NCBI GenBank assembly: GCA_030647415.1
Contig: JAUSKB010000016.1
Coordinates: 1 to 59,843, forward strand
Direction: 5' to 3'
Origin: a bacterium
GTDB taxonomy: Bacteria > Patescibacteriota > Minisyncoccia > UBA6257 > GWB1-50-10
DNA: 59,843 bases
Shown here: piece by piece, positions 13,982 through 50,519 of the stretch
Layout: each line of letters begins with the position of its first letter
Numbering within the stretch: the stretch's first letter is position 1
Program-made: the position numbers and the translations under genes
The notes under the pieces: generated by a model
Told to the model about the DNA's origin: nothing
What the model saw: the letters and a program-made list of their open reading frames with translations, nothing else
Database searches by the model: none

Positions 13982-13986
13982 GGAAT

Positions 13987-19462: not shown

Positions 19463-20503
19463 TCACCGGAGATGCAGCCCCGGCATGACGGAAAAGTTGT
19501 TGAGTAGCGACTCGAACTGGTCGAACTGCTCGCACACCATGCCGGTGCCGCGAACCACGCAGGTGAGCGGTTCCTCAACGATGCTCACCGCGACACCAAT
19601 CTCCTTCTCAATGATTGCGTCGATACCGCGCAAGAGGCTCCCCCCGCCGCAGCAGTGCACCCCGTTCTTGTACACGTCGCCGACCAACTCCGGCGGGGTG
19701 CTCTCGATGAGGTCCTTCAGGGCCTCGGTGATGACTTTAAGCGGTCGGACGAGCCAGGTCCGCACCTGCACGTCTCGGACCGGGACCTCGCGGGGAAGCC
19801 CGCTCGTGAGGTCGCGGCCACGAATCACGATCTCGAGGCGCTCGCCCGCGACCGGCGCGGCCGTTCCCACCGCGAGCTTGATCTCCTCTGCGGTCGGCTC
19901 GCCGATGTGGAGCTTCAGCTCGTCCCGCGTCGCCCGGATGATTTCCTGGTTCAGGTAATCCCCGGCGATCTTCAGCCGCCGGGAGATGACGATGCCGTTC
20001 ATGGAAATGACCGCCATGTCGGTGGCACCAGCGCCCAGATCGACAAGGAGGTAGGCGGTCGCCTGCTGGATGTCGAGGTGGCTCCCGAGGGCCCCCGCGA
20101 GCGGCTGTTCGATGAGAAACACCTCGCTTGCCCCCACCTCGCGGAGCAGGTCCTCGACCGATTTCCGCTCCACCTCCGTCAGGTTGGTCGGGACCGACAC
20201 GATGGCGCGCGTGAGCCAGGACCACGGCAGATGCTCGCGCCGAAGGAACCGCTCGAGGAGCTCCCGCGCCATGTCGAAATCGGCGATTACCCCGTGACTT
20301 ATCGGCCGGAGCGCGGTGATGTGGGTCGGCGTCCGCGCGAGCATGCGCTTCGCATCAAGACCGACGGCGATGGTTCGGTTCGTCCGGTTGTTGAAGGCGA
20401 TGATGGACGGCTCGTTCACCACGATGCCGGTGCCCTTCAGGTAGATACGGGTGGTGTCCGTCCCGAGGTCGATGCCGATGGTTTTGCGGAAATTGAAGGC
20501 CAT
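19463..20503 (-). CDS. mreB: rod shape-determining protein MreB
   Basis: Actin-fold motifs IGIDLGTDTTRIY, VDLGAGATDMAVIS, GGGSLLRGID (346 aa). Confidence 0.95.
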   Translation of the reverse strand: MAFNFRKTIGIDLGTDTTRIYLKGTGIVVNEPSIIAFNNRTNRTIAVGLDAKRMLARTPTHITALRPISHGVIADFDMARELLERFLRREHLPWSWLTRAIVSVPTNLTEVERKSVEDLLREVGASEVFLIEQPLAGALGSHLDIQQATAYLLVDLGAGATDMAVISMNGIVISRRLKIAGDYLNQEIIRATRDELKLHIGEPTAEEIKLAVGTAAPVAGERLEIVIRGRDLTSGLPREVPVRDVQVRTWLVRPLKVITEALKDLIESTPPELVGDVYKNGVHCCGGGSLLRGIDAIIEKEIGVAVSIVEEPLTCVVRGTGMVCEQFDQFESLLNNFSVMPGLHLR

Positions 20504-20504
20504 A

Positions 20505-20653
20505 AGAGTAATCGCGAATAATGCTAATTATTGCAAATAATGCGAATGAATGCGCACTCCATTCGCATCAGTATACCTGCTATTCGCATTATTCGCGATT
20601 ACTCTTTTCATTCGAATTATTACCTTTGCTATTCGAATTATTCGCGATTACTC
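20505..20653. repeat. 149-bp complex palindrome family C-prime, copy 1
   Basis: Left arm gagtaatcgcgaataatgc. Two alternative right arms: attcgcattattcgcgattactc and attcgaattattcgcgattactc. It overlaps the last codons of proS. Confidence 0.85.
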
Positions 20654-21897
20654 CCGAGGAGCGCGGGCAGGTCCTTCAGCGCGACGAGCTCAGGCTTCCC
20701 GTTCTTGCGCTCTTTTACCTCCACCTTGTTGTGCGCGAGGGTCTTTTCGGAAACGACGAGGCGTGCGGGGATACCGATGAGGTCGGCGTCCGTGAACTTT
20801 TCCCCTGCCGACATTTCGTGCCGGTCGTCGAAGAGGACCTCCATGCCTTTTTTCGTCAGCGCCTCATACACCTTCTCGGCGTAGGCACGAACCTTTTCAT
20901 CCTCACCGAGCACAACGAGGTGCGCGGCGGCGGGCGCGACACTCCGGGGCCAGACGATGCCCCTATCGTCGTGGTGCACCTCTACGATGGTCCCCACGAG
21001 CCGGTCTACCCCGATACCGTAGGATGCCATGATAACGGGGTGGAGCGCACCCGCCGCATCGCGGTAGCGGAGATTCAGTGGCTCCGAGAACCGCGTGCCG
21101 AGCTTGAAAATATTCCCCACCTCGCTCGTCGCGACGTGCTCCACGACGCCGCCGGGGCATTTGGGGCAGGTGGCGCCGGACTTGAGCTTCGATATCTCCT
21201 TGTTCTCCGCATAGCCGCAGAGCCGGCAAAGCACCGTCTCGTCCTCGCCGGCAGACGTTTCCACCATGAACTCATGCGAGTGCTCCTTAGAGAAGTCGCC
21301 GCCCGATGCCTCCGTGACGAACGCGGTGAGCTCCATGCGCTTGAAAACCTTGAGGTAGGCGTGCTTCACCACTTCGTAAAACTCCGCAAGCGATTGCTCA
21401 TCCGCGTGGAAGCTGTAGAGGTCCTTCATGGAAAACTCCCGCCCGCGCATGAGGCCGGACTTCGCGCGCGCCTCGCTCCGGAACTTCGTCTGTATCTGAT
21501 AGGTCGAAATCGGCAGGTCGGCGTAGGAGAAAATGATATGCGTGCCGATCGCGGCGACAATCTCCTCGTGCGTGGGACCCAGGCCGTACTCCTTCCCTTG
21601 CAGGTCCCTAAACTGGTACATCACGCTCTTCATGCTCTCCCATCGGCCGGTCGCGTCCCATGCGGCGCGGGGATGGAGGGCAGGCATGAGGAGCTCCGAG
21701 GCGCCAAGCGCGTTCATCTCCTCGCGGATGATGCCGATGACCTTCTCGCGGACGCGAAATCCCAAGGGCAGGAAGGTGTGGACGCCCGCCATAAGCTTCG
21801 AGATGAACCCACCCCGCGCAAGGAGCTGCGCGTTCACCGAGACCTCATCCTTCGGGGCCTCTTTGAGCGTGCGGGAGAATAATTTTGACTGCCTCAT
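20638..21897 (-). CDS. proS: prolyl-tRNA synthetase, short form without INS editing domain
   Basis: MRQSKLFSRTLKEAPKDEVSVNAQLLARGGF..., motif 2 FRSEARAKSGLMRGREFSMKDLYSF, motif 3 SYGIGVDRL. Only 419 aa. Confidence 0.92.
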   Translation of the reverse strand: MRQSKLFSRTLKEAPKDEVSVNAQLLARGGFISKLMAGVHTFLPLGFRVREKVIGIIREEMNALGASELLMPALHPRAAWDATGRWESMKSVMYQFRDLQGKEYGLGPTHEEIVAAIGTHIIFSYADLPISTYQIQTKFRSEARAKSGLMRGREFSMKDLYSFHADEQSLAEFYEVVKHAYLKVFKRMELTAFVTEASGGDFSKEHSHEFMVETSAGEDETVLCRLCGYAENKEISKLKSGATCPKCPGGVVEHVATSEVGNIFKLGTRFSEPLNLRYRDAAGALHPVIMASYGIGVDRLVGTIVEVHHDDRGIVWPRSVAPAAAHLVVLGEDEKVRAYAEKVYEALTKKGMEVLFDDRHEMSAGEKFTDADLIGIPARLVVSEKTLAHNKVEVKERKNGKPELVALKDLPALLGSNRE

Positions 21898-22046
21898 GGA
21901 GTAATCGCGAATAATGCTAATTTAACTCAAATAATGCGAATAAATGCGCTCTATTCGCATTATTACCTCTACAATTCGCATTATTAGCGATTACTCTCTT
22001 CATTCGCATTATTATATCTGCAATTCGCATTATTAGCGATTACTCC
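21898..22046. repeat. 149-bp complex palindrome family C-prime, copy 2
   Basis: Same organisation and orientation as 20505-20653, and roughly 80 percent identical by eye. It abuts the proS ATG. Confidence 0.85.
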
Positions 22047-22047
22047 T

Positions 22048-22079
22048 TATAGTACCCAAATTTCCGCATTCGGCAACTT
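22048..22079. repeat. 32-bp direct repeat, left flank of the hicAB cassette
   Basis: tatagtacccaaatttccgcattcggcaactt; matches 22814-22845 at 30/32 positions. Confidence 0.85.
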
Positions 22080-22092
22080 ACCACAAATGGAC

Positions 22093-22338
22093 CTAAAGTT
22101 GCCGCCGGATGTCATCCCATGTCACCCCGCTGTACCGCTCGATTTCCTTGAGCACGTATGAGAGAACCTCCTTCGGGAGCTTCTGCGGTATAGTGACCGA
22201 TTTTTGGGTCGGCGGCCAGGTAGTTTTGTAGTGGCTGCCGTCCCCGCCCCGCTCGTCGATCAAAAACCCAAGACGCCGGAGCGCCTTGATGAGTTTCCTC
22301 CGCTTCAATTCCCCGGGTAATTCGCTATGCGGCGGCAT
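22093..22338 (-). CDS. hicA: HicA/YcfA-like toxin (type II TA)
   Basis: 81 aa from the ATG at 22338: ...KRRKLIKALRRLGFLIDERGGDGSHYKTTW...VTIPQKLPKEVLSYVLKEI. It overlaps the upstream antitoxin ORF by 14 nt. Confidence 0.6.
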   Translation of the reverse strand: MPPHSELPGELKRRKLIKALRRLGFLIDERGGDGSHYKTTWPPTQKSVTIPQKLPKEVLSYVLKEIERYSGVTWDDIRRQL

Positions 22339-22684
22339 ACGCTTCCCCCCGGTCGGTCTCACGGCGAATCGCCGCTTCGGGAGCGTATGCGGACGGCACG
22401 CTGAACGCCGTAAGGATGCCGTCTTTAACACTCCGGTCAAGTTCCTCTGGCGTGCGGCCGTGAGCGACGATGCTGCCGTACGTAAAGTTCGCGCTCACCG
22501 AGACGAGTGTGTCGCCCTCGCGGTGATGTTCGAACCGAATCGGGCCGAAGTTCTTGAAGTACCGGTGCAGGTCGAGCAGACCGCTCGGGACGGTCGAGGT
22601 ACCCAAGATGAACTTCCCAACCCGGTCCTTTGCAACTTTGAAGATGTTCATGGGACTTTTAGATTTATTCTCCTGCCACAGCAT
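22325..22684 (-). CDS. hicB: HicB-like antitoxin (UPF0150-type fold)
   Basis: ...VSANFTYGSIVAHGRTPEELDRSVKDGILTAF resembles the HicB N-domain. It is paired with and overlaps hicA. The start could be 22684 or 22651. Confidence 0.5.
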   Translation of the reverse strand: MLWQENKSKSPMNIFKVAKDRVGKFILGTSTVPSGLLDLHRYFKNFGPIRFEHHREGDTLVSVSANFTYGSIVAHGRTPEELDRSVKDGILTAFSVPSAYAPEAAIRRETDRGEAYAAA

Positions 22685-22698
22685 CCGTCAACACGTTG

Positions 22699-22707
22699 AT
22701 TATACCA
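22699..22707 (-). promoter_or_regulatory. extended -10 box candidate for hicBA
   Basis: The minus strand reads TGGTATAAT about 15 nt upstream of the 22684 ATG. Confidence 0.35.
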
Positions 22708-22758
22708 CATGGTCAGCCGATTTCCTTTCACGCCCATCCACCGCCTACTCACTCGTTA

Positions 22759-22780
22759 TTATCGAAGTCGGACTTCGATA
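22759..22780. repeat. hairpin family H copy 2
   Basis: ttatcgaagtcggacttcgata. With its flanks (ctcgttatt...gattc) it matches 25371-25408. Confidence 0.85.
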
Positions 22781-22813
22781 GATTCAAGAGTTTTGACTGG
22801 CGCATTGCCTCTC

Positions 22814-22845
22814 TATACTACCCAAATTTCCGCGTTCGGCAACTT
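22814..22845. repeat. 32-bp direct repeat, right flank of the hicAB cassette
   Basis: tatactacccaaatttccgcgttcggcaactt. Confidence 0.85.
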
Positions 22846-22953
22846 TCAGGAATCTCCCCGAGTGGGACGAAGTTGGTGATGTGTGCCGGGAAATAGAGAA
22901 GGTTGCCTGAGAATGAAAACACAAAGTCGCCTCATACCGAGGCGACTCCTTAC

Positions 22954-23712
22954 TCACTCTACCCATTCCACATGCTCACCGACAGAGACCCACTTTCTAT
23001 CGGCGCCTTTCTCATAGGAAACAATCCTACCTCCGTAGCCGACTCTGAAGTGAACCTCAACCCTGTCGAACTTCGGGTTGAACACGAAGGTCATCGTCGG
23101 CATCGTCATCAAATGCCAATATCCGCCCCAATGCCCATGGAGAATCGGGAGAAACTTTTTCACGAGCGCCTCGCGCTCGGCGCTCGTGCCTGTGGCCCGT
23201 GAAGGGCGCATGATACCGGGGGAACCGAACTTCGTCGATTTGCTACCGAGAAACCGCTTGAGCAGGGTGTCGTACTTCAAGGTCAGATAGAGGACCCTGA
23301 CCGTGTCTCCAAAGTCGAGCTTCGGCCTGAAGCTTTTGATGACGAACTTCGTGGCTCCATTGCGGTCGTCCCACTTCCCGTTCTCGCTGATGTAGTACAT
23401 GAACGATCCCGGGACCACGACGTTCCGATACCCGTCATTGATCGCACCATCGGAGTTGAACGACACTTTGTCCTTGAGATCGAACGGAGTGAATAATTGC
23501 CGATACAGGCCATAGACCACCCCCGCCGTATCGCTCTCTTTCTTGGTGTCTCTAGGTGCGTATTCTTTTCCCCACCGATCCAGAAATCCCGAGAAATTCC
23601 ACTCGTGATCGCTGGTCGCATAAACTATCTGTTCCAATGATTTCTGGGCCTGCAAGGTTACTGGAAACAGAAGCACAAGCAACACTATAGATATATGAGA
23701 CTTTAACCTCAT
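22954..23712 (-). CDS. secreted hypothetical protein
   Basis: Signal peptide MRLKSHISIVLLVLLFPVTLQAQ, a good SD (aaggaaggag N6 ATG), and lower GC than the surroundings. Confidence 0.6.
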   Translation of the reverse strand: MRLKSHISIVLLVLLFPVTLQAQKSLEQIVYATSDHEWNFSGFLDRWGKEYAPRDTKKESDTAGVVYGLYRQLFTPFDLKDKVSFNSDGAINDGYRNVVVPGSFMYYISENGKWDDRNGATKFVIKSFRPKLDFGDTVRVLYLTLKYDTLLKRFLGSKSTKFGSPGIMRPSRATGTSAEREALVKKFLPILHGHWGGYWHLMTMPTMTFVFNPKFDRVEVHFRVGYGGRIVSYEKGADRKWVSVGEHVEWVE

Positions 23713-23904
23713 AACCGACTCCTTCCTTATTGATTGTGAATACTCTCGAAACTCTGGTTTAGAGATAACACTGATGGCGTTCTCCTGTCAAACCTCGTCG
23801 CTCCCCTTGCTGGACGCGTTGAGCCTCGCCCGTAGGCTACGGCCGAGGGAACGGTGGATTGGCCCCTAGTTAAACAAGAAATGGAGCTTATGCCTATATT
23901 TGTA

Positions 23905-23939
23905 TAAAAAGTTTGAAGCCCTGGGTTCGCCAGGGCTTC
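23905..23939 (-). terminator. rho-independent terminator of 23960..24478
   Basis: Minus strand: gaagccctgg-cgaac-ccagggcttc, then aaacTTTTTat. Confidence 0.6.
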
Positions 23940-23959
23940 GGTTTGCCTCCACCTCCTGT

Positions 23960-24478
23960 CTAAAACTGTTTTTGCAGCTCGATCCACGCTAACTCCCACG
24001 AAGATGATTTGTCCTTCGTCACGTACTCCTCAAGCCGATGACGTTTAGCTTCGTTATTCACAGAAGCTAAAATCCTAAGCCGATGCTCGGCGTCATAATC
24101 ATCTTCCTTTAAACGGAGGGCTTCTTCGCAGATCTCCTTGTTTTCGAGGGTGATGAAGAAGTTGGAGGTGCCGTGATTCGTGAACATCAACCGTGGTATC
24201 CCCATGACGACCGCCTGTGCCAAAAGATCGTATCCATTCCTTTCCAACAGCACCTTGTAGTCATTATCACGCTTAAGGTTCGAATAGCTACCAATGCTGT
24301 CGGTGGAAAGAAACGGCATTGACCGATCAGTCAGGAGGGCGTCCGCCACAGGCAACAGCTCCTGCGCCTCCTTTCTGCTGGTCGCGTACATGAACTCAAA
24401 GCCCTTAACCGTCGAGAAGAAGCTTTTGGCCGCCTGCAGGTTTTCTTTGGTGTCTTCAACTATAAGAATTTTTTTCAT
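23960..24478 (-). CDS. orphan receiver (REC)-like domain protein
   Basis: MKKILIVEDTKENL...ALLTDRSMP resembles a CheY-like acidic pocket and phospho-acceptor Asp. SD gggag N7 ATG. No output domain was recognised. Confidence 0.45.
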   Translation of the reverse strand: MKKILIVEDTKENLQAAKSFFSTVKGFEFMYATSRKEAQELLPVADALLTDRSMPFLSTDSIGSYSNLKRDNDYKVLLERNGYDLLAQAVVMGIPRLMFTNHGTSNFFITLENKEICEEALRLKEDDYDAEHRLRILASVNNEAKRHRLEEYVTKDKSSSWELAWIELQKQF

Positions 24479-24590
24479 TAATTTCTCCCAATATTGGTTT
24501 ATGAATGATTCCTTACTTTTCTATTGAAATTATAGCACTATTGTATGCTTTTTGTCAAATTTATCTGCTCCCCCCAGTTGGACTCAAACC

Positions 24591-24627
24591 CACAGCAATT
24601 TCCCCACATCCTGCACCGTGACGATGG
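24591..24627 (-). pseudogene. relic copy of the rseP 3' end
   Basis: cacagcaatttccccacatcctgcaccgtgacgatgg matches 25421-25457 at 33/37 positions. It would encode ...TIVTVQDVGKLL, compared with rseP ...AIVTVQDVGKLL*. Confidence 0.8.
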
Positions 24628-24643
24628 TACGGCGGCCCCGTGT

Positions 24644-24952
24644 TTACCCTACGAGGCCGACCTGCTTATCAAATACATTCGCAATCTTGTGCAGTGTTGC
24701 GATCGAGAAACTGTGTGTTCCTGACTCAATCCGGGCAATGACCGACTGGGGCATGTCGGCTTTGGCCGCAACCTCCTTTTGGGTCATCTTCCGTTCCTGG
24801 CGCAATGTTTTGATTTCGTGCGCCAATTGTAATCTGCTCATTTCTTCGGAAAATGTTTTGCGAAATCGCTCACTCTTGAGCTTTTCTTTAATAACCGCAT
24901 CGAGAGAAATTGAATTGTATTTTTTGGCGATTTTTTTCATCTTTTTATGCAC
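24644..24952 (-). CDS. higA: XRE-family HTH antitoxin (HigA-like)
   Basis: ...RQERKMTQKEVAAKADMPQSVIARIESGTHSFSIATLHKIANVF, a Cro/C1-type HTH. Located downstream of the toxin gene. Confidence 0.75.
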   Translation of the reverse strand: MHKKMKKIAKKYNSISLDAVIKEKLKSERFRKTFSEEMSRLQLAHEIKTLRQERKMTQKEVAAKADMPQSVIARIESGTHSFSIATLHKIANVFDKQVGLVG

Positions 24953-24963
24953 GCGATAGATAG

Positions 24964-25257
24964 TCAGCGAGTTATGTCTTTATAGATTTTCTCTGCTCGT
25001 TCGATAATTCGCTTGGGTGTTTTCTGGCTCTTTTTCCTGAAGGCATCTACAACATACCCCGTTGATCCCACGAAGAAAAATACGATTCGATACTGTTTCA
25101 CCACCATTTCCCTAATTTTCCCTTTCAGTGGTTTAATAAGCAATCCTTCTGTGCGATTTTCCTGAAGCGACTTAAGGTGAGCAATAATCTTTGCGGTATC
25201 ATCTTCGGGAATCCTTTCGAGAAAATCGGAGGTGTCATCAAGGATCCGTATATTCAT
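24964..25257 (-). CDS. higB: RelE/ParE-superfamily toxin, Gp49/HigB-like
   Basis: ...GKIREMVVKQYRIVFFFVGSTGYVVDAFRKKSQKTPKRIIERAEK, the typical Gp49-like signature. The toxin-first gene order is as in higBA. Confidence 0.75.
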   Translation of the reverse strand: MNIRILDDTSDFLERIPEDDTAKIIAHLKSLQENRTEGLLIKPLKGKIREMVVKQYRIVFFFVGSTGYVVDAFRKKSQKTPKRIIERAEKIYKDITR

Positions 25258-25381
25258 AGCTTGCGCGCGCTATTTTGTCGACCTTTATACACTAACACCA
25301 ACAGTATAGCAATATTGCTATACTTGTAAAGAGGTGTTGTTCCGTCAGTTTTTGTCTCGTGTTTCGTGTCTCGTTATTATA

Positions 25382-25403
25382 TTATCGAAGTCGGACTTCG
25401 ATA
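25382..25403. repeat. hairpin family H copy 3
   Basis: ttatcgaagtcggacttcgata, 17 nt downstream of the rseP stop. Confidence 0.85.
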
Positions 25404-25419
25404 GATTCGATTTCTACTA

Positions 25420-26481
25420 CTACAGCAGTTTCCCCACGTCCTGCACGGTGACGATGGCCATGAGGAGAAGGAGGGCGGCGAACCCGACGCCGTTTATGGC
25501 TATCTGTACTCGGCGCGGGATGGGGCGCCGAATGAGCTTTTCAACAAGCAACACGAGGACCCGGCCGCCGTCCAAGGCCGGAAACGGAATCAGGTTCAGG
25601 ATGACCAGGTTCAGCGAGATGAGGGCGAGGAGCTGGAAAAAGTAGACCGCGCCGAGCTCGCCCGTGCGGACGGCAAAGCTCACAATACCGACCGGCCCGC
25701 TCACCTTCTGGAGCACGCCGGGCTCCGTAAAAACATTTGTGAGGAGGTACCAGAAGCTCGATGCCACCTCCCCGAGCGTCCGGAAGGTCTGGAAGAAGGC
25801 CTCGGCAATCGCCTGGTGAATCGGGAGGGCCGGAAACCCGATGGAGGTGAGCGCAATACCGAGTGAGCCCTCGCCCGGCGGCGGGGTCGCCCGCCCGACG
25901 AGCGTGACGGTGCGCGTCCCGCCCGCACCGGTGAGTTCAAGCGAGAGCGTCTTCCCCGCCGCGGACCTGGCGAGCGCGACGAATGCGTCGGCGTCTATTG
26001 GGTCCGCGAGCGCCGTCTCTCCCCATGTGGCGCGGGCGATGACATCACCCTGCACGATGCGTGCTTCAGCCGCGGGCGAACCGGACGAGACGCCACCCAC
26101 GATGAGATGCTCCGGCGCGCCGGCGGCGAAGACACCCGTCAAAATTACAAATCCGAAGAGGACGTTCATCGCTACACCCGCAAGGAGAATACCGATCCGC
26201 TTCCAGAGTGGTTTCGCTCCAAAGCGCCGTTCCGGCTCATCGCCCACCTCCTCTTCCGACTTCCCAGCCGGCTGTTCCCCGTGGATGCGCACGAACCCGC
26301 CAAACGGCAGGGCGTTCACGCTGTATGTCGTCTCGCCCACCGTCCGGCTCCAGAGCCGCGGCGGGAACCCGATACCAAACTCGTCCACGCGCACTCCGGC
26401 CGCCTTTGCCGCCAAAAAATGGCCCAGCTCATGGACCAGGATGACGAGCGACAAACCGATGATGGATAAAAAAATAATCAT
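25420..26481 (-). CDS. rseP: RIP metalloprotease RseP (site-2 protease, M50)
   Basis: HELGHF zinc motif in the first TM helix, a PDZ-like middle region, and the C-terminal motif LNLIPFPALDGG. Confidence 0.92.
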   Translation of the reverse strand: MIIFLSIIGLSLVILVHELGHFLAAKAAGVRVDEFGIGFPPRLWSRTVGETTYSVNALPFGGFVRIHGEQPAGKSEEEVGDEPERRFGAKPLWKRIGILLAGVAMNVLFGFVILTGVFAAGAPEHLIVGGVSSGSPAAEARIVQGDVIARATWGETALADPIDADAFVALARSAAGKTLSLELTGAGGTRTVTLVGRATPPPGEGSLGIALTSIGFPALPIHQAIAEAFFQTFRTLGEVASSFWYLLTNVFTEPGVLQKVSGPVGIVSFAVRTGELGAVYFFQLLALISLNLVILNLIPFPALDGGRVLVLLVEKLIRRPIPRRVQIAINGVGFAALLLLMAIVTVQDVGKLL

Positions 26482-26482
26482 A

Positions 26483-26572
26483 ATTCCTAATTTCTAATTA
26501 CCAATTTCTAATTACCAATCACAAACCAGAAATCCCCATTGGATATTAGAAATTGGAAATTAGTAATTTTAT
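26483..26572. repeat. spacer-filling imperfect palindrome (ctaat/attag words)
   Basis: ctaatttctaattaccaatttctaattaccaat ... attggatattagaaattggaaattag. The arms are colinear. It fills the gap between the rseP start and the frr stop. Confidence 0.75.
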
Positions 26573-29697: not shown

Positions 29698-31125
29698 ATG
29701 CCCCTCCGGCTCCGGAAAACCTTCTTCTACCTCTGCCTCGTCGCCTTCCTCGCCGTCGGCGGCTACCTCGTACTCTTCACGCGGGGGCTCGTCTTCGACC
29801 TGCGGCACTTTGAGCTCGTCCCCACGGGCGCGCTCTACCTGAAATTCACCCCGTCCGACGCGACACTCCTCGTGAACGGCAAGGAGCGGCCGGCCGGCGC
29901 CAACATCCTCTCCCCCGGCACATTCGTGGACAACCTCGCGCCCGGCACATACACAGTCACCGTGACCCGTCCGAATTTTTCGACGTGGACAAAGGCGCTC
30001 ACGGTATCTTCGACAATGGTGACCGCCGCAAGCCACATCCGACTCTGGCCCACTCACGCCCCCGCCACACCCGTCGCCATCGATATCGCGAATTTTTGGC
30101 TCACCGGGGAAGGTGCGGTGCTCCAAGATGCCTCGGGGACGTTGCGGCTCGCGCGTCGAACCATTCGCGGCTCCACAGTCGTTGAAAGCGACCAGGGTTC
30201 ATCACGACTCCTGACTGAGGGGCAGGGCCAGTTCTACCTCATGGATCTCTCGGCGCCGGACACCACAACAAATATTTCGGCACTCTTCGTCTCCCTCCGT
30301 AGCAGGACTATTTCACCAGTTGGTCCTGTTGCAACCGGCACACTGGTACGGTCGGGTTCGACTACCTCAACAAACTTATTGCAAGCAAGCTCGCCGCAAG
30401 CCGAACACGTCCGCGCCGTCCTCCTGCATCCCTTCAGCGGACAGAAGCTTATTGTCGGCACCGATGCTGGCCTCTACGAGCTCGACACAAAAAAGGTTTC
30501 ACTCGAACGGCTCGCGAGCGTGGACCGATTCACCGCGCTCGCAAAGAGCGGCGGTGATGCGTTTATTATGAACGGTTCGAGCACGATGACAGTGGTGAAT
30601 CTTATCCTCCATACCAGCGTCACCTACGCGTTCCCGCTTTCTTCCGGGCTTCGGTCGCTCATCGCTTCGCCAAACGGGAGCTACCTCGCGGCGATTTCCG
30701 ATACCGGCGTCCTGTCGGTGCTGGACCGGACCGCCGGGACATTCACGCCCGTCGCGCACAACGTCGTAACTGCTACCATCGCCCCGGATAACACAGCGCT
30801 CATCTTTCTCTCAACCGACGGGCGCTTGAACCTGTACTACCTCTCGGACGTCGCCGGGGACGAGCTTTTCACTGCGGGGCAGCTCACGGCGAGCGCCGGC
30901 CCGCTGCCGGTGCCGCCGGCGGGAACGCTCACCGCGCTTCCAAGTTTCTCCGGAACGGTGCTGGTACAAGCCAGCGGCACGTTGCTTGCCGCGGAGACCG
31001 ACCTCCGCGGACAGGTCAACAGCACCGCCCTCGCCGCGCACGTCCGTTCGTTTGCGATTCGCGACACCACCCTCTACCTGCTCTCGACCGACGGTACCTT
31101 GAGCTCCATGAACCTCGCGCCGTGA
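29698..31125 (+). CDS. membrane-anchored PEGA-domain / beta-propeller-like protein
   Basis: N-terminal TM helix (FFYLCLVAFLAVGGYLVLF), a PEGA-like segment (ATLLVNGKERPAG...LAPGTYTVTVTRPNFSTW), and repetitive beta-rich sequence downstream. Confidence 0.6.
   Translation: MPLRLRKTFFYLCLVAFLAVGGYLVLFTRGLVFDLRHFELVPTGALYLKFTPSDATLLVNGKERPAGANILSPGTFVDNLAPGTYTVTVTRPNFSTWTKALTVSSTMVTAASHIRLWPTHAPATPVAIDIANFWLTGEGAVLQDASGTLRLARRTIRGSTVVESDQGSSRLLTEGQGQFYLMDLSAPDTTTNISALFVSLRSRTISPVGPVATGTLVRSGSTTSTNLLQASSPQAEHVRAVLLHPFSGQKLIVGTDAGLYELDTKKVSLERLASVDRFTALAKSGGDAFIMNGSSTMTVVNLILHTSVTYAFPLSSGLRSLIASPNGSYLAAISDTGVLSVLDRTAGTFTPVAHNVVTATIAPDNTALIFLSTDGRLNLYYLSDVAGDELFTAGQLTASAGPLPVPPAGTLTALPSFSGTVLVQASGTLLAAETDLRGQVNSTALAAHVRSFAIRDTTLYLLSTDGTLSSMNLAP
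31023..31125. repeat. 103-bp direct repeat, copy 1 (functional 3' end of 29698..31125)
   Basis: caccgccctcgccgcgcacgtccgttcgtttgcgattcgcgacaccaccctctacctgctctcgaccgacggtaccttgag... recurs at 31838-31940. Confidence 0.9.
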
Positions 31126-31151
31126 GCTACGGCCGGGGTACCCATGCATCT

Positions 31152-31745
31152 ATGAAAAACTATCAGAATATAAAAGCGATTGCATTTGATTTCTGGGACG
31201 TCTTTGCAACTATGAATCCCCCCATGAACCATTACCTGGAAGAACGTGGCGTCTCAATTAAAAAATACTTAGACAAAATTCACAATCTTATCGTATCCCA
31301 CGACCTTGGAAAGATAGACGAAAAGCAGTTCCTTCAGGCATGCTCTCGAATAGTGGGGGTGGAAATCCCGTACGACCAGTGCCGGTACATATACCGAGAT
31401 GGGACCTTGAACGCGCCGCTAATTGAGATTATAAAAAAACTGAAGGCGAGATATAAAATCGCGCTTCTCTCGAATAATAATAGAGAATATGTCCAAGAGC
31501 ACATTTACAAGCCCGGCTTGGATAAACTTTTCGACGTAATGGTCGTTTCCTACGAAGCGGGCTACCAAAAACCTGCCCCTGAAATATACAAAAGCCTCAT
31601 TCAGAAGCTGCAAGTAGAACCAAGCGAGATACTGTTTCTTGATGACGACACAGGAAAGTTAGGAGCGGCAGAGGTGCAAGGAATCCAAACGCTTGCTTAC
31701 AAAGGAGAGGAAACAGATAAAATCCTGGAACACTTTTCTAGTTAG
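31152..31745 (+). CDS. HAD-superfamily hydrolase
   Basis: Motif I AFDFWDVF, motif II LLSNNN, motif IV FLDDDTGKLGAAE. Low GC relative to neighbours. Confidence 0.7.
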   Translation: MKNYQNIKAIAFDFWDVFATMNPPMNHYLEERGVSIKKYLDKIHNLIVSHDLGKIDEKQFLQACSRIVGVEIPYDQCRYIYRDGTLNAPLIEIIKKLKARYKIALLSNNNREYVQEHIYKPGLDKLFDVMVVSYEAGYQKPAPEIYKSLIQKLQVEPSEILFLDDDTGKLGAAEVQGIQTLAYKGEETDKILEHFSS

Positions 31746-31811
31746 AAAGTCCTGCCTACCAGTAGGCAGGCTCGGTTCGTTCCACCAACAGGCGGACCTG
31801 TCTTGGGGAGT

Positions 31812-31833
31812 GTGGTATGACATGTACCACCCC
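31812..31833. repeat. family P palindrome, degenerate copy 2
   Basis: gtggtatgacatgtaccacc. Confidence 0.6.
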
Positions 31834-31837
31834 TTTC

Positions 31838-31940
31838 CACCGCCCTCGCCGCGCACGTCCGTTCGTTTGCGGTTCGCGACACCACCCTCTACCTGCTCTC
31901 GACCGACGGTACCTTGAGTTCCCTGGATCTCTCGCCGTAG
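31838..31940 (+). pseudogene. 103-bp direct repeat, copy 2 (orphaned 3' end of 29698..31125)
   Basis: Near-identical over the first approximately 80 bp, diverging in the last approximately 20 bp. It ends in its own in-frame stop (tag at 31938-31940). Confidence 0.85.
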
Positions 31941-33894: not shown

Positions 33895-33915
33895 TGGTAT
33901 GACAATGTCATACCA
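33895..33915. repeat. family P palindrome, copy 3
   Basis: tggtatgacaatgtcatacca. Confidence 0.8.
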
Positions 33916-48506: not shown

Positions 48507-49928
48507 TTATTCTTCTCCCGTCTCCACCTTGATGGAGAGTTCGTGAAGCTGAGTAAGCGTTGCCTCCGAAGGTGCGTCCATCACCGCAATCTGGCCGCTC
48601 GAGGTCGCCGGAAAGGCCATCACCTCGCGGATACTCGATTCTCCCAGGAGCACCATCATGAGCCGGTCGATGCCTGGCGCGATGCCGCCGTGGGGCGGGA
48701 CGCCGTGGCGGAACGCCGTAAGCATGTGGTCGAACTGCGCTTTTTGTGTCGCGTTGAAGCCGATGAGGTCAAATACTTTCTCCTGCACCTCCGGGCGGTG
48801 GATACGGATGCTTCCCCCGCCGACCTCGTAGCCGTTCAGGACCATGTCGTGCTGGAGGCCGCGGACCTTCGTGGGATCGGTATCGAGAAGTGGTACGTCG
48901 TCGGGGTGCGGCGCCGTGAACATGTGGTGCGACGGGGCGAACTTCGCCGCCCCCGAGCCATGAAAGAAATCCTCCTTCGACTGCTCGGTGAAGAGCGGAA
49001 AATCAATGGTCCAGGAAAATGCGAGCTCGTTCGGGTCTTTTTTGTCCTTCCGAAGGTCCGGTTTGTCCGTACCGTACGTCGCTACCGCCTCCGTATGGGA
49101 GAGCCGCGGCCACGGCTTCTTCGTGATGTGCTTCTCGGGGAAGATGGATTCGGCGAGCTTCGTGAACAGGTCTTCGGCGAGCCGGAGAATATCCTCCTGC
49201 GTCACGAACGACATCTCGAGGTCGAGCTGGGTGAACTCCCCGTACGCCCGGTCCGCGCGTGGGTCCTCGTCGCGGAAACAGCGCGCAATCTGGAAGTACC
49301 GCTCGAATCCCGCAACCATGAGGAGCTGTTTGTACTGCTGGGGCGACTGTGGGAGGGCATAAAACTTGCCGGGCTGGAGGCGGGAGGGCACGAGGAAATC
49401 GCGCGCGCCCTCGGGTGTGGTCTTCGTAAGAATGGGCGTCTCTATCTCGGTGAATCCCTCGTTCGAGAGATACTCCCGGATGAACCGGACCGCCGCATGC
49501 CGAAGCTTCAGGTTTTTCTGCATCCGCGGCCGGCGGAGGTCAAGGTAGCGGTACTTGAGGCGAAGCTGCTCGTCCACATCGTGGCCGTCGGTGTCGAGCG
49601 GGAAGGGCGGGGTTTTCGCCTCATTCAAAACCTCGATCGCGGTGACCGAAACCTCGTACGCGCCGTTCGGGAGATTCGGATTCTCCATGCCCGCCGGGCG
49701 TTTCTTCACCATACCGGTGAGCCGCACCACCCACTCGCTCCGGAGCGTCTGGCCCACCTCATGCGCCGCGACCTCCTTGGGCGTGAAGACAACCTGCGCG
49801 ATGCCGCTTCGGTCCCGGAGGTCTATAAAAACAAGCTTCCCGTGGTCGCGCCGGACATCCACCCATCCCTCGAGCGTGACCTGCTCGCTCTCATGGGCGC
49901 CGATGTCCTTTGTGAGGGTTCGTTTCAT
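48507..49928 (-). CDS. aspS: aspartyl-tRNA synthetase (short, no GAD insertion)
   Basis: OB domain (VTLEGWVDVRRDHGKLVFIDLRDRSG) and class II motifs (FRDEDPRADRAYGEFTQLDLEMSF; GGIAPGIDRL). The likely start is MKRTLTKD at 49928. Confidence 0.93.
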   Translation of the reverse strand: MKRTLTKDIGAHESEQVTLEGWVDVRRDHGKLVFIDLRDRSGIAQVVFTPKEVAAHEVGQTLRSEWVVRLTGMVKKRPAGMENPNLPNGAYEVSVTAIEVLNEAKTPPFPLDTDGHDVDEQLRLKYRYLDLRRPRMQKNLKLRHAAVRFIREYLSNEGFTEIETPILTKTTPEGARDFLVPSRLQPGKFYALPQSPQQYKQLLMVAGFERYFQIARCFRDEDPRADRAYGEFTQLDLEMSFVTQEDILRLAEDLFTKLAESIFPEKHITKKPWPRLSHTEAVATYGTDKPDLRKDKKDPNELAFSWTIDFPLFTEQSKEDFFHGSGAAKFAPSHHMFTAPHPDDVPLLDTDPTKVRGLQHDMVLNGYEVGGGSIRIHRPEVQEKVFDLIGFNATQKAQFDHMLTAFRHGVPPHGGIAPGIDRLMMVLLGESSIREVMAFPATSSGQIAVMDAPSEATLTQLHELSIKVETGEE

Positions 49929-50046
49929 TCCTTCATAGTAATATCGGAGACGTCCGACGTCCAATGGACATCGGGCGTCCGAATATTAGGTTCCATGAGT
50001 TTCTGACCACAACAAAAAAGGAGCGGTTTCCCGCTCCTTGCAACCA

Positions 50047-50283
50047 TCATCTTTGTAAAATCTCGACTTCCGGATACCTTGCGGGATCGAATCCGCGGAG
50101 CTTGATCTCCTTGAGGATTAAATCATTCACAAAAGAAGTGAAACTGTTATTTTTCGTCTTAAGGTTCTGCTGGCTAACAAAAATTTTCACATATTGCGAC
50201 AGGTTCTTAGGGAGAAAAATGGTGGTCCTTTTCTTCTCTCCATACAACATGAACACTTCCGCTTCCGGTCTGCCCCTTTTCAT
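50047..50283 (-). CDS. small ribbon-helix-helix-like protein (cassette gene)
   Basis: The ATG at 50281-50283 is preceded by GGAGG. MKRGRPEAEVFMLYGEKKRTTIFLPKNLSQYVKIF... has a beta-strand then helices, typical of CopG/RHH. Low GC. Confidence 0.45.
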   Translation of the reverse strand: MKRGRPEAEVFMLYGEKKRTTIFLPKNLSQYVKIFVSQQNLKTKNNSFTSFVNDLILKEIKLRGFDPARYPEVEILQR

Positions 50284-50420
50284 ATTTTCCTCCATTGTTA
50301 ATGTCCCATTGAAAAATGTATTTTATTGTTATCACTCTTTTATTCTCGTGTCAACCATGTTTTATTACAACATATTCGAATTTACAGAGGCGAAGCCTCT
50401 GTGTGCAAGCCTCTGTGTGC

Positions 50421-50519
50421 AACGAGTTTGCCGTGGTCGCGGCGGACATCCACCCAGCCCTCGAGCGTTATGGTCTGACCTTCGTGCGCGGTGATGTCTT
50501 TCGCGAGGGTGCGTTCCAT
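50421..50519 (-). pseudogene. orphan copy of the aspS 5' end
   Basis: Encodes MERTLAKDITAHEGQTITLEGWVDVRRDHGKLV, compared with aspS MKRTLTKDIGAHESEQVTLEGWVDVRRDHGKLV. The 89-bp DNA match is 50431-50519 against 49840-49928. Confidence 0.85.

What the first reader, a model, noticed from the sequence alone, without database searches (positions are those of the whole stretch)
22048..22845. hicAB mini-cassette flanked by 32-bp direct repeats
tatagtacccaaatttccgcattcggcaactt (22048-22079) and tatactacccaaatttccgcgttcggcaactt (22814-22845) match at 30/32 positions. They bracket a 734-bp, visibly lower-GC segment.

That segment holds only hicB-hicA, a TGGTATAAT box and an H hairpin.

The pattern is what Campbell-type integration of a small circle sharing about 30 bp with the chromosome would produce, or a site-specific att duplication. 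No recombinase gene lies inside.
Basis: partly seen in the sequence, partly recalled or inferred. Interest (0 to 1): 0.66.

Follow-up and report, generated by a model that had tools for sequence, protein, structure and literature searches.

The report
Toxin cassette inserted with duplicated gene start
A small toxin-antitoxin module was inserted at the very start of an essential gene (proS) of an uncultivated ultra-small (CPR) bacterium, and a copied ~60-base piece of that gene's promoter and start kept the gene intact; several other small inserts in the same genome are built the same way, and how they get in is not yet known.

Summary
The 32-bp direct repeats are real (30/32 identical; none expected by chance), but they are only part of a ~60-nt duplication: the native proS promoter-like region, ribosome-binding site and first seven proS codons. 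The proS-side copy is split by a 149-nt inverted-repeat element. Related genomes have the empty site, with rseP and proS 47 bp apart. A second assembly confirms every junction.

The 706-bp insert holds a REP hairpin, an extended -10 box, a rare 108-aa ORF that is not a recognisable HicB, and a bona fide HicA. The hairpin is an extragenic palindrome (REP). It occurs exactly on at least 120 metagenome contigs and flanks IS200-like Y1 transposase (RAYT) genes.

Three more units in the window (higBA, a HAD hydrolase, a small ORF) and one in an unrelated CPR contig share the layout: duplicated gene terminus, cargo, palindrome, duplicated terminus. The closest relative carries the same REP after rseP with a different toxin-antitoxin pair.

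No recombinase was found among about 55 ORFs screened, including every gene next to the four units. The repeat copies look like diverged functional alleles. I favour recombination-based import from related strains (Campbell-like), but the mechanism is unresolved.

The parts
22048..22079 (-). Proximal copy of the 32-mer. On the minus strand it is the proS promoter-like region (-35-like TTGCCG, 16 nt, -10-like TACTAT), still linked to the functional proS.
   Evidence: Orthologous to AGTTGCGG...GGTAGTAT directly upstream of the SD and ATG of proS in L082/L083. The promoter function is inferred from position; the consensus scan did not list it.
21898..22046 (.). 149-nt AT-rich element with 24-nt terminal inverted repeats (GAGTAATCGCGAATAATGCTAATT). 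It splits the proximal repeat copy between the 32-mer and the proS ATG. A second copy lies at 20506-20654, directly upstream of the mreB ATG.
   Evidence: D1, D2, I1-I11; 84% identity between copies. A related element sits between proS and mreB in L084.
21877..21897 (-). First seven codons of the functional proS (ATGAGGCAGTCAAAATTATTC, MRQSKLF). This is the proximal copy of the coding part of the duplication.
22080..22092 (-). 13-nt tail of the insert, between the hicA stop and the proximal repeat copy.
22093..22335 (-). hicA toxin gene (80 aa, GSH motif). It overlaps the stop of the upstream ORF by 11 nt.
   Evidence: PF07927, E=5.3e-9. The same overlapping arrangement occurs in L089 and L090.
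22325..22651 (-). 108-aa putative antitoxin, a conserved HicA partner that is not a recognisable HicB.
   Evidence: Only three homologues were found (50-58% identity), and two are followed by an overlapping HicA gene. There is no Pfam, PADLOC or PDB sequence hit. The AF2 model (pLDDT 82.6) has only weak dsRBD-like fold matches, E>=0.075.
22699..22707 (-). Extended -10 box TGGTATAAT, the cassette's own promoter.
   Evidence: Read directly from the sequence. The function is inferred.
22757..22785 (.). REP module: the perfect 21-nt palindrome TATCGAAGTCSGACTTCGATA (22760-22780) plus flanks. It is identical over 29 nt to the copy at 25380-25408 and forms the upstream end of the insert, abutting the relic proS codon 7.
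   Evidence: (D7). It occurs exactly on at least 120 metagenome contigs and flanks Y1_Tnp genes. The same REP with the same flanks follows rseP in L212.
22786..22845 (-). Distal (relic) copy of the target: 32-mer + GAGAGG SD + ATGCGCCAGTCAAAACTCTT (MRQSKL-). It keeps the ancestral layout and the ancestral codon 2 (CGC).
   Evidence: L082 CGT; L003, L004 and L084 CGC.
24592..24627 (-). Relic copy of the last 12 codons of rseP (TIVTVQDVGKLL, then W-V-stop). This is the left repeat of the neighbouring higBA cassette.
   Evidence: (D6).
24628..25421 (-). Second cassette with the same build: REP module (25380-25408), promoter, Gp49/HigB-like gene (24964-25257), HTH/HigA-like gene (24644-24952) and a 16-nt tail.
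25422..25457 (-). Functional rseP 3' end (AIVTVQDVGKLL*), the right repeat of the higBA cassette.
   Evidence: KLL* is also the RseP end in L212 and L213.
22846..24591 (-). Middle filling of the rseP-proS hotspot: a 252-aa secreted-type hypothetical protein (22954-23712) with a terminator, and a 172-aa receiver-like protein (23960-24478) with a consensus promoter. It is absent from L082, L083, L003 and L004.
31023..31938 (+). Third unit: the 3' end of the 475-aa gene (31023-31125), a HAD hydrolase (about 31153-31745), a truncated REP2 palindrome (31811-31830), then a relic 3' end with an in-frame stop (31838-31940) and the original terminator.
   Evidence: (D2). The site is empty in L082.
49830..50519 (-). 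Fourth unit: a relic 33-codon 5' end of a class IIb aminoacyl-tRNA synthetase (50421-50519), a hairpin with a tandem repeat (about 50383-50420), an 82-aa ORF (50047-50295), then the functional 5' end (49830-49928).
   Evidence: (D4).

Best explanation
What is shown. The rseP-proS junction is 47 bp in close relatives. In this CPR (Patescibacteria) genome it is a 3.4-kb insertion hotspot. The flagged repeats are two copies of a ~60-nt piece of the target: the proS promoter-like 32-mer, the SD and proS codons 1-7. This piece was duplicated when a 706-nt module (REP hairpin, own extended -10 promoter, a 108-aa putative antitoxin, the HicA toxin, a 13-nt tail) entered at proS codon 7. The upstream copy is a dead relic. 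The downstream copy keeps proS complete and expressed. The hairpin is an ordinary REP, an extragenic palindrome of a RAYT / IS200-like Y1 transposase family that is widespread in CPR. In this clade the REP normally sits just after the rseP stop, with varying toxin-antitoxin cargo behind it: higBA and hicA in the window, DUF6922/AbiEii in L212.

What is inferred (mechanism). The cassette did not transpose by itself. DNA from a related strain's version of the same hotspot was taken up; the genome encodes ComEC and pilins. It was integrated by recombination anchored in the neighbouring essential gene. This was either a Campbell-type single crossover of a circularised fragment carrying a short stretch of the target, or a homologous join on one side with an illegitimate join on the other, at or near the REP. 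Under this reading the two repeat copies were never identical, because one is the resident allele and the other the donor allele. That would explain three things:
- the differences are largely synonymous;
- the relics keep their frame and stop codons;
- the functional proS start is more derived than the relic.

The same process stacked higBA at the rseP 3' end and produced the HAD and 82-aa-ORF units elsewhere. Once in place, the toxin-antitoxin pair would stabilise the insert by addiction, as known for HicA-type systems in general.
For: Insertion with target duplication:
- The repeats are real and unique.
- The extended duplication includes the proS start.
- The empty site in L082/L083 reads ...KLWG* - GTTCCCGG - AGTTGCGG..GGTAGTAT - GGAGAAGTC - ATGCGTCAG.
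- The rseP-proS gap is 0-60 bp in most of the roughly 80 relatives, and kilobase-sized fillings occur in a few.
- An independent Logan contig, L211, is 100% identical over window 25003-21913.

Generality:
- Four units in the window have 36-, ~60-, 99- and 101-nt duplications of four different gene termini.
- A fifth occurs in the unrelated AT-rich contig L181: a 35-nt duplicated gene end, an epimerase, the REP, the relic end, then the original terminator.

Hotspot with alternative cargo: L212 (RseP 88% identical) has rseP, then 57 nt, then the same REP (29/29 identical), then DUF6922/AbiEii.

Allele-like repeat copies:
- rseP end: 3 of 3 differences are synonymous, and two of the relic's variants (ACG, TTG) are shared with L212.
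- Class IIb synthetase start: 10 synonymous against 7 non-synonymous codon differences, with no frame disruption.
- HAD unit: 6 of 7 differences lie in the last 25 of 101 nt, and the in-frame stop is kept.
- proS: the relic keeps ancestral CGC, while the functional copy has AGG and TTA, both synonymous two-step changes.
- None of the five repeat pairs is identical.

No cis or nearby recombinase was found. Competence genes are present. Competence and homologous-recombination genes are reported as general in Patescibacteria (PMC12455944).
Against: - The longest perfect matches inside the repeats are short: no more than 16 nt in the 32-mer, 10 nt in the rseP repeat, and 14 nt in the 77%-identical synthetase repeat. 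That is poor substrate for RecA-type crossover as the sequences stand today.
- The synonymous excess is based on small numbers (17 synonymous against 12 non-synonymous codons). It is only mildly above what duplication in place followed by drift predicts; my estimate for that is about 42%.
- No donor genome, circular junction or single-cargo allele (rseP-REP-hicA pair-proS) was found.
- A palindrome sits next to one repeat copy in all five units. Plain homologous recombination does not explain that.
- Classical homology-facilitated illegitimate recombination usually deletes target DNA rather than duplicating it (from my own knowledge of that literature; not checked here).
Confidence: 0.45

Rival explanations
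1. Transposition-like insertion in trans with a long, variable staggered cut. Units made of cargo plus a terminal REP hairpin would be mobilised by an enzyme encoded elsewhere, for example the RAYT/Y1 transposase that recognises this REP. They would be inserted between two nicks 35-100 nt apart, and gap repair would create true target-site duplications that later drifted. Only insertions near gene termini would survive, because the long duplication rebuilds the gene.
For: - A palindrome lies 0-33 nt from one repeat copy in 5 of 5 units, and on the same side (right-hand in + coordinates) in all four window units.
- The two TA cassettes share a 40-nt REP module as their only common sequence.
- The REP flanks Y1_Tnp genes elsewhere.
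- The four targets have no sequence in common.
- With intergenic gaps of 5-50 bp, any 35-100-nt stagger must include a gene end.
- In L181 the insert starts 1 nt before the cargo ATG, so the cargo is promoterless as in integron cassettes.
Against: - IS200/IS605-type Y1 transposases are known to insert without target duplication (established knowledge).
- No RAYT gene lies in the window.
- A stagger that varies from 35 to 101 nt is unlike any single transposase.
- None of the five duplications is identical.
- 122 REP-bearing loci gave only three REP-adjacent duplications, and REP neighbours are mostly housekeeping genes.
- The distance from the REP to the junction varies between 0 and 33 nt.
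Confidence: 0.22
2. Replication template switching or illegitimate recombination provoked by the hairpin. A nascent strand stalls or breaks at a REP hairpin, copies cargo from a sister or foreign template, and returns to the original template 35-100 nt behind the point where it left. This would give an insertion flanked by a duplication, with one junction at the palindrome.
For: - One junction of every unit lies at or near a palindrome.
- The duplication lengths are variable.
- No recombinase is needed.
- REP sequences are documented join points of tandem duplications in enterobacteria (established knowledge; not checked here).
Against: - The copies should be identical at birth, yet they are 77-94% identical with a synonymous bias.
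- It does not explain why the functional proS start is more derived than the relic.
- No microhomology analysis is possible without the donor sequence.
Confidence: 0.15
3. Site-specific integration by a tyrosine or serine integrase acting in trans. The repeats would be attL and attR, and the element would carry a replacement gene terminus, as in phage 21/e14 at icd or the dusA-specific islands.
For: Duplicated gene termini with allele-like differences are the classic signature of such elements (established knowledge). The relic copies keep their frame and stop codons.
Against: - The four units use four unrelated target sequences with no common core.
- No integrase was found in the cassettes or among about 55 window ORFs screened.
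- The units are only 0.5-0.8 kb.
Confidence: 0.06
4. Assembly artefact: co-existing strains with alternative cargo at one hotspot were threaded into a single chimeric path.
For: Relatives do carry alternative cargo at this hotspot. The Logan contigs break at window 24979-25003, which suggests a graph branch there.
Against: - A conservative second assembly (L211, 3,091 nt) spans the relic rseP end, the relic proS start, the REP, the hicA pair and the proximal 32-mer with 100% identity.
- L001 spans rseP, the REP and higB.
- The repeat copies share no more than 16 nt of perfect identity, too little to mis-join k-mer graphs.
- Caveat: both contigs come from the same sample (SRR13727527).
Confidence: 0.03

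Closest known systems
Campbell-type integrants and integrative islands that duplicate a gene terminus (phage 21/e14 in icd, dusA-specific islands; suicide-plasmid single crossovers)
   Same: The insert is bracketed by direct repeats that are a piece of the target gene. One copy keeps the gene functional and the other is a relic. The copies differ like alleles. An empty site exists in relatives.
   Different: No integrase. The units are only 0.5-0.8 kb. Four different targets lie in one 60-kb window. Both 5' and 3' gene ends are used. A REP hairpin sits at one end of each insert.
REP / REPIN elements and their RAYT (IS200-like Y1) transposases
   Same: The hairpin is a perfect palindrome. It is extragenic, lying 2-40 nt after stop codons. 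It occurs in several copies per genome and flanks Y1_Tnp genes on related contigs.
   Different: REPs are not known to carry cargo or to be associated with 35-100-nt target duplications. Here the copies are singlets, not REPIN doublets. The same 21-mer is invariant across contigs of 29-58% GC, while the associated transposases are only about 45-58% identical. I found no literature on REP/RAYT in CPR.
Integron gene cassettes, including toxin-antitoxin cassettes of chromosomal integrons
   Same: Small units of one or two genes, each with one palindromic element at one end. They are stacked at a hotspot, and TA modules are prominent. Some cargo is promoterless and co-oriented with the upstream gene (L181, HAD).
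   Different: There is no attC architecture (R''-L''...L'-R' with GTTRRRY cores), no IntI and no attI/Pc platform. Integron insertion does not duplicate tens of bases of the target.
hicAB toxin-antitoxin loci
   Same: A HicA toxin domain with the GSH motif. A small upstream partner gene overlaps it. The pair has its own promoter and sits in an accessory-gene location.
   Different: The partner is not a HicB: no RNase-H-like or HicB Pfam, PDB or fold match. It belongs to a very rare family with 3 detectable homologues. The gene order is partner first, toxin second.
Homology-facilitated illegitimate recombination during natural transformation (Acinetobacter, Streptococcus pneumoniae)
   Same: Foreign DNA is acquired with one end anchored in a conserved gene and the other end joined illegitimately. 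It needs competence genes, which are present here.
   Different: The described events usually delete recipient DNA. Here 35-101 nt are duplicated instead. No donor is available to check for microhomology.

Membership tests
HicA-HicB type II toxin-antitoxin system | Toxin with a HicA domain (dsRBD-like fold, catalytic His in a G-S-H context) | tested here: met
   PF07927, E=5.3e-9, 36.5 bits against a cut-off of 27. GDGSHYK is present in the translation.
HicA-HicB type II toxin-antitoxin system | Adjacent antitoxin of the HicB family (partial RNase H fold, with or without an RHH/HTH DNA-binding domain) | tested here: not met
   No Pfam, PADLOC or PDB sequence hit. The AF2 model (pLDDT 82.6) has no PDB fold match below E=0.075, and the best hits are dsRBD-like.
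HicA-HicB type II toxin-antitoxin system | Conserved two-gene operon with overlapping or adjacent ORFs | tested here: met
   The 11-nt overlap is seen here, and the same pair with an overlap occurs in L089 and L090.
HicA-HicB type II toxin-antitoxin system | Toxicity that is neutralised by the partner | not testable with these tools
   Needs expression assays.
REP / RAYT system | Short palindromic sequence able to form a stem-loop | tested here: met
   21-nt perfect palindrome; 9-bp stem, 3-nt loop, -9.4 kcal/mol.
REP / RAYT system | Extragenic and repeated in the genome | tested here: met
   Three copies in the 60-kb window. In metagenome loci it is mostly intergenic, 2-40 nt after a stop codon, and only 2 copies sit between divergent genes.
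REP / RAYT system | The cognate Y1 (IS200-like) transposase gene is flanked by the same palindrome | tested here: met
   In L096 and L136 the ORFs flanked by the palindrome hit PF01797 (E=2.5e-7 and 4e-9). Homologues occur on about 18 REP loci. Y1_Tnp is the only recurrent neighbour family.
REP / RAYT system | A RAYT gene is present in the same genome | tested here: inconclusive
   None in the 60-kb window. The rest of the genome is not available.
Integron gene cassette | attC site with R''/L''-L'/R' imperfect symmetry and a GTTRRRY core at the cassette boundary | tested here: not met
   The palindrome is perfect, only 21 nt long, and lacks the core motifs. The boundaries are 36-101-nt duplications of the target (by inspection).
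Integron gene cassette | IntI integrase with attI and Pc next to the array | tested here: not met
   No tyrosine recombinase among about 55 window ORFs screened.
Insertion sequence / MITE-type transposon | Terminal inverted repeats and a short target-site duplication of fixed length | tested here: not met
   The 706-nt insert has no inverted ends. The duplications are 36-101 nt and variable.
Integrase-mediated integrative element (att duplication at a gene terminus) | Direct repeats that are part of a gene terminus, with the gene restored | tested here: met
Integrase-mediated integrative element (att duplication at a gene terminus) | Element-encoded or linked integrase, and a common core shared by its att sites | tested here: not met
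   No integrase was found. The four repeat pairs have unrelated sequences.
Campbell-type (homology-driven) integrant | The empty site in relatives carries one copy of the repeat | tested here: met
   L082 and L083.
Campbell-type (homology-driven) integrant | A circular intermediate, or a donor carrying one repeat copy plus the cargo | not testable with these tools
   Needs raw reads or more genomes of the species. No closer relative than 88-89% protein identity exists in the collections searched.

The most novel reading that the evidence does not exclude
CPR bacteria may possess a cassette-capture system that has not been described. Small cargo units tagged at one end by a REP hairpin would be moved in trans, by the RAYT-type Y1 transposase that recognises that hairpin or by a hairpin-dependent replication or repair route acting on single-stranded DNA taken up by competence. 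They would be inserted at gene termini with 35-100-nt target duplications that rebuild the interrupted gene. This would be functionally analogous to integron cassettes but mechanistically distinct.
Probability: 0.17. Interest if true: 0.85.

Novelty: new variant of a known kind. Interest (0 to 1): 0.6.

Why it matters
CPR/Patescibacteria have tiny, tightly packed genomes with few recognisable mobile elements, and how they gain accessory genes is an open question. This window shows, at base resolution, one repeatable way. Sub-kilobase cargo (three different toxin-antitoxin types, a hydrolase, an epimerase) is wedged into the ends of essential genes. A 35-100-nt duplicated gene terminus keeps the gene alive, and a conserved REP hairpin lies at one border.

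If recombination with sister strains drives this, it documents 'stacking' of alternative hotspot alleles rather than replacement. If the REP/RAYT pair drives it, it would be a new cassette-mobility mechanism.

Two by-products stand on their own:
- An invariant 21-nt REP with an associated RAYT family spread across CPR metagenomes. It is absent from Rfam, and I could not find it in the literature.
- A rare, non-HicB partner family for HicA toxins.

Tried and rejected
- **Promoter scan.** The consensus scan did not call the 32-mer (8 of 12 matches, below its threshold). The promoter assignment rests on orthology of position only.
- **Rfam.** No gathering-score hit in the window. The only low-score hit in 20400-25600 was a spurious miRNA match on the AT-rich element.
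- **Exact-protein look-ups.** The window ProS and HigA were not on record. The exact RseP look-up gave only the same genome (L001).
- **GTDB species representatives.** The nearest ProS is only 65-67% identical, good for synteny but too far for alleles.
- **Contexts of partner-ORF homologues (L085-L090).** These contigs are too short or too diverged to show borders.
- **Repeat-bracketed cargo in other relatives' rseP-proS fillings.** None had terminus duplications, only lineage-specific palindromes in L034 and L074.
- **Duplication around the third REP unit (10507-10950).** None found.
- **REP in viral contigs.** None.
- **Literature search.** The motif sequence and REP/RAYT in CPR gave nothing relevant.
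- **Operator or parS-like protein-binding site.** I considered this because some copies lie between DnaA-box-like 9-mers. I set it aside once the palindrome was found flanking Y1 transposase genes and sitting after stop codons.
- **Polarising the HAD-unit repeat with L082.** This failed because the orthologue's C-terminus is too diverged.
- **Single REP x REP crossover as the origin of the whole island.** It reproduces the gene order, but it still needs a circle with the same two odd junctions, so it is no simpler.
Full report
**1. Observation**

The two 32-mers exist at 22048-22079 and 22814-22845 and match at 30 of 32 positions. They are the only matches in the window at up to 3 mismatches, and 100 dinucleotide-preserving shuffles gave none.

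Between them lie four features:
- an 80-aa HicA toxin gene (22093-22335, minus strand; PF07927, E=5e-9);
- an upstream overlapping ORF of 108 aa (22325-22651);
- a TGGTATAAT box (22699-22707, minus strand);
- a perfect 21-nt palindrome (22760-22780).

GC is only modestly lower inside: 0.564 against 0.582 for the window and 0.61-0.64 for the flanking genes. Only the non-coding part is clearly low.

**2. The repeat is longer and is a gene start**

On the minus strand, the distal copy continues past the 32-mer as GAGAGGCA-ATGCGCCAGTCAAAACTCTT, which encodes MRQSKL. The functional proS starts ATGAGGCAGTCAAAATTATTC, encoding MRQSKLF ([D14], 31).

In the proS-side copy, a 149-nt AT-rich element with 24-nt terminal inverted repeats (21898-22046) separates the 32-mer from the ATG. 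A second copy of this element, 84% identical, lies immediately upstream of the mreB start at 20506-20654.

So the duplicated target is about 60 nt (promoter-like region, SD and seven codons), and the insert proper is 22080-22785, or 706 nt.

**3. Organism and empty site**

The flanking genes are frr, rseP (M50 peptidase), proS, mreB and mreC. ProS relatives place the window in Patescibacteria (CPR, Parcubacteria-like).

Among about 80 relatives, frr-rseP-proS-mreB is the conserved order, usually with 0-60 bp between rseP and proS. A few genomes carry 1.4-4.3 kb of filling at that junction.

The closest long relative is L082 (GCA_964562255.1, ProS 86% identical). It is collinear with window 39786-11078 at 70-80% nucleotide identity. 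In L082 and L083, rseP and proS are 47 bp apart and the sequence reads ...VTVQDVSKLWG* - GTTCCCGG - AGTTGCGGACAATAAAAAAGGCGGTAGTAT - GGAGAAGTC - ATGCGTCAGTCG.

From this I conclude:
- The 32-mer is the orthologous proS promoter-like region, with -35-like TTGCSG and -10-like TAGTAT.
- The distal copy in the window has the ancestral layout.
- The distal copy also has the ancestral second codon. L082 has CGT; L003, L004 and L084 have CGC. The functional proS carries AGG and TTA, both synonymous changes that need two steps.

**4. A second cassette with the same build**

The hairpin, with 29 identical nucleotides, recurs at 25380-25408 upstream of a Gp49/HigB-like gene plus an HTH/HigA-like gene (24644-25257). 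That pair is bracketed by a different 36-nt repeat, 24592-24627 and 25422-25457, at 92% identity.

The right copy is the functional 3' end of rseP (AIVTVQDVGKLL*). The left copy is a relic (TIVTVQDVGKLL-W-V-stop). All three differences between them are synonymous.

The two cassettes share only a ~40-nt module: GAATC, the palindrome, ATAAT(ATAAT) and AACGAG. Between them lie a receiver-like gene and a 252-aa hypothetical gene.

The island therefore reads, on the minus strand:
rseP..X | REP-higBA-16 nt | X'-relic tail - two genes - Y' (promoter + 7 codons) | REP - HicA pair - 13 nt | Y - 149-nt element - proS.

**5. Not an assembly artefact**

Logan contig L211 (SRR13727527) is 100% identical to window 25003-21913. 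It spans X', Y', the REP, the HicA pair and Y. L001 covers 28050-24979. The repeat copies share no more than 16 nt of perfect identity, which is too little for k-mer mis-joins. Both contigs come from one sample.

**6. Two more units in the window and one elsewhere**

- **HAD unit.** A 101-nt duplicate of the 3' end of the 475-aa gene (31023-31123 and 31838-31938, 94% identical) brackets a HAD hydrolase. Six of the seven differences lie in the last 25 nt. The relic keeps an in-frame stop at the same position and is followed by a terminator-like hairpin. L082 has the empty site.
- **82-aa ORF unit.** A 99-nt duplicate of the 5' end of a class IIb aminoacyl-tRNA synthetase (49830-49928 and 50421-50519, 77% identical) brackets an 82-aa ORF. 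The 33 codons stay in frame, with 10 synonymous and 7 non-synonymous codon differences.
- **L181.** A scan of 122 REP-bearing loci found one further case. An upstream gene end (RKSVKEVIIKNL*) is followed by an NAD-dependent epimerase, the REP, a relic end (RKSVKEIIIKN*) and an intrinsic terminator.

In all five units a palindrome lies 0-33 nt from one repeat copy. For the HAD unit it is a truncated member of a second palindrome family, GGTGGTATGACATGTCATACCACC, which also occurs at 10376 and 33895.

**7. What the hairpin is**

It is mostly intergenic and lies 2-40 nt after a stop codon. It rarely sits between divergent genes.

In L096/L108/L147 and in L136/L154 it flanks ORFs with HUH and Y motifs that hit PF01797 (Y1_Tnp, the IS200-like family). 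Homologues occur on about 18 REP loci. Among 137 REP-neighbouring ORFs, Y1_Tnp is the only recurrent family and the rest are housekeeping genes.

This fits a REP with its RAYT transposase. No RAYT gene lies in the window. There was no Rfam hit, none in viral contigs, and no literature hit for the sequence or for RAYT in CPR.

**8. The hotspot in the closest relative**

L212 (the same contig as L122; RseP 88% identical, rseP 84% at nucleotide level) has rseP ending GKLL*. After 57 nt comes the same REP with the same flanks, 29 of 29 identical to the copy in the HicA cassette. A DUF6922 gene and an AbiEii toxin follow.

So 'rseP - REP - variable toxin-antitoxin cargo - proS' is a clade feature. 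At the three variable sites of the rseP repeat the states are:

| Sequence | Site 1 | Site 2 | Site 3 |
|---|---|---|---|
| Functional copy | ACC | GAC | CTG |
| Relic copy | ACG | GAT | TTG |
| L212 | ACG | GAC | TTG |
| L213 | ACG | GAC | CTG |
| L082 | ACC | GAC | CTG |

Both copies therefore carry variants that also segregate among relatives. L176 shows the REP 49 nt upstream of another Gp49/HTH pair.

**9. The HicA partner**

The 108-aa ORF has only three detectable homologues (50-58% identity), and two of them are followed by an overlapping HicA gene. It has no Pfam, PADLOC or PDB sequence match.

A confident AF2 model (pLDDT 82.6, pTM 0.73) has no PDB fold match below E=0.075. The best hits are weak dsRBD-like matches. 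It is best called a putative antitoxin of an unclassified family.

**10. Mechanism**

*Shown:* the unit is an insertion at a hotspot, with duplication of a gene terminus. The architecture recurs, and no recombinase lies in cis. No tyrosine or serine recombinase was found among about 55 window ORFs screened. The only transposase-like gene is a MULE/Mutator-family ORF at 32337-33308. ComEC and a pilin-like gene are present, and competence and homologous recombination are considered general in Patescibacteria (PMC12455944).

*Inferred:* I favour recombination-based import of a sister strain's version of the hotspot, either Campbell-type or homologous on one side and illegitimate on the other. The reasons are:
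- None of the five repeat pairs is identical.
- The differences are enriched for synonymous changes (17 synonymous against 12 non-synonymous codons).
- The relics keep their frame and stop codons.
- The functional proS start is more derived than the relic.

*Against this reading:*
- The perfect-identity stretches are short.
- The statistics are weak. Duplication in place followed by drift predicts about 42% synonymous changes by my estimate.
- The constant presence of a palindrome at one border is unexplained.

That last point keeps two rivals alive: a trans-acting, hairpin-dependent insertion with a long staggered cut, and template switching at REP hairpins. A site-specific integrase is unlikely, because the four targets share no common core. 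An assembly artefact is very unlikely.

**11. Comparison with known systems and novelty**

The toxin is an ordinary HicA, and REP/RAYT is a known kind of element. The recurrent architecture combines a duplicated gene terminus, sub-kilobase cargo, a REP border and the absence of a recombinase. It appears four times in 60 kb and again in an unrelated CPR contig. It matches none of the families I tested:
- Integron cassette: not met.
- IS or MITE: not met.
- Integrase-mediated island: core features not met.
- Campbell-type integrant: partly met, but the intermediate is untestable here.

I rate it a new variant of a known kind and moderately interesting. The interest would rise sharply if the REP/RAYT link turns out to be causal.

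Noticed in passing
Window 11032-11052, 22760-22780, 25383-25403; loci L091-L210: The invariant 21-nt palindrome TATCGAAGTCSGACTTCGATA occurs exactly on at least 120 metagenome contigs of 29-58% GC. It is often extended by 3-7 nt of lineage-specific palindrome, sometimes occurs in tandem pairs 26-31 nt apart, and sometimes has extra half-sites nearby. The associated Y1 transposases are only about 45-58% identical to each other. In L096 and L136 a copy lies in frame inside the transposase ORF. It is not in Rfam and I found no literature on it.
   Followed up: partly
Loci L113, L118, L139, L160, L168, L107, L138, L093, L097, L109, L132, L151: Several REP copies sit between DnaA-box-like 9-mers (TGTGCATAA ... 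TGTGGATAA). In L138 a 62-nt REP-plus-box block is repeated on both sides of a RAYT-like ORF. This may be an oriC-proximal context or a box-carrying REP subtype.
   Followed up: no
Window 10376-10399, 31811-31830, 33895-33915; L034 6971, 7765, 8539: A second palindrome family, GGTGGTATGACATGTCATACCACC, marks other island borders: after rpsI, at the HAD unit, and at the far end of the 147-aa gene unit. A variant (GGTGCTATGACATGTCATAGCACC) punctuates units of about 780 bp in the rseP-proS filling of relative L034.
   Followed up: partly
Window 20506-20654 and 21898-22046; also 13985-14030, 15543-15579, 38163-38275, 43616-43720, 26476-26511, 28022-28043: AT-rich elements built from short repeated units (ATTCGCATTATT, ATGATACGAATGGTACGAAT, AATCATAATTCCTAATTTCTAA) lie immediately upstream of start codons of core genes (proS, mreB, rseP, holB and others). 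The proS/mreB type has 24-nt terminal inverted repeats. L084 has a different type before proS. They could be MITEs that target or supply leaders, or a lineage-specific promoter or leader architecture.
   Followed up: partly
Window 36453-36518 and 37249-37314: A 66-nt direct repeat (95% identical, hairpin-containing) follows the stop codons of both rpsK and rpsD, so it brackets rpsD. L082 has almost no spacer at either place.
   Followed up: partly
Window 31940-33950: A second island lies between the 475-aa gene and rpsI, where L082 has a 76-bp gap. It holds a MULE/Mutator-family transposase with an N-terminal zinc ribbon (32337-33308) and a 196-aa membrane-protein-like ORF. A 46-nt stretch at 32231-32276 is 93% identical to L212 1068-1113, just downstream of that relative's rseP-REP.
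   Followed up: no
Window 10507-10950: A 147-aa ORF with no family match is bounded by REP1 (11032) and REP2 (10376). It has its own TTGACA promoter-like box and an intrinsic terminator, is absent from L082, and has no flanking duplication. It looks like another accessory unit at a REP.
   Followed up: partly
Window 54652-54750, 56307-56348, 58518-58552: Very long perfect palindromes: 32 and 34 nt in tandem 66 nt apart (ACATGCTAACATTCTGCAGAATGTTAGCATGT and its variant), a 42-nt one (CGAATATACCATAATCGACGGCCGTCGATTATGGTATATTCG), and one with a 16-bp stem. Function unknown.
   Followed up: no
Window 42251-43609: A TrwB/TraG-like coupling-protein ATPase (PF10412, PF02534) lies among unannotated ORFs (40774-45626). 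These are flanked by repeated 24-26-nt motifs (TTTACCCTGTTAGAGTTTTACA and its complement at 36210-42179). This may be a secretion or conjugation-related module.
   Followed up: no
L176 1105-1790; L212 1386-1798: Other toxin-antitoxin pairs sit directly behind the same REP in unrelated contigs: a Gp49/HTH pair in L176 and DUF6922/AbiEii in L212. This hints at a recurrent REP-TA neighbourhood, although bulk analysis shows that most REP neighbours are housekeeping genes.
   Followed up: partly
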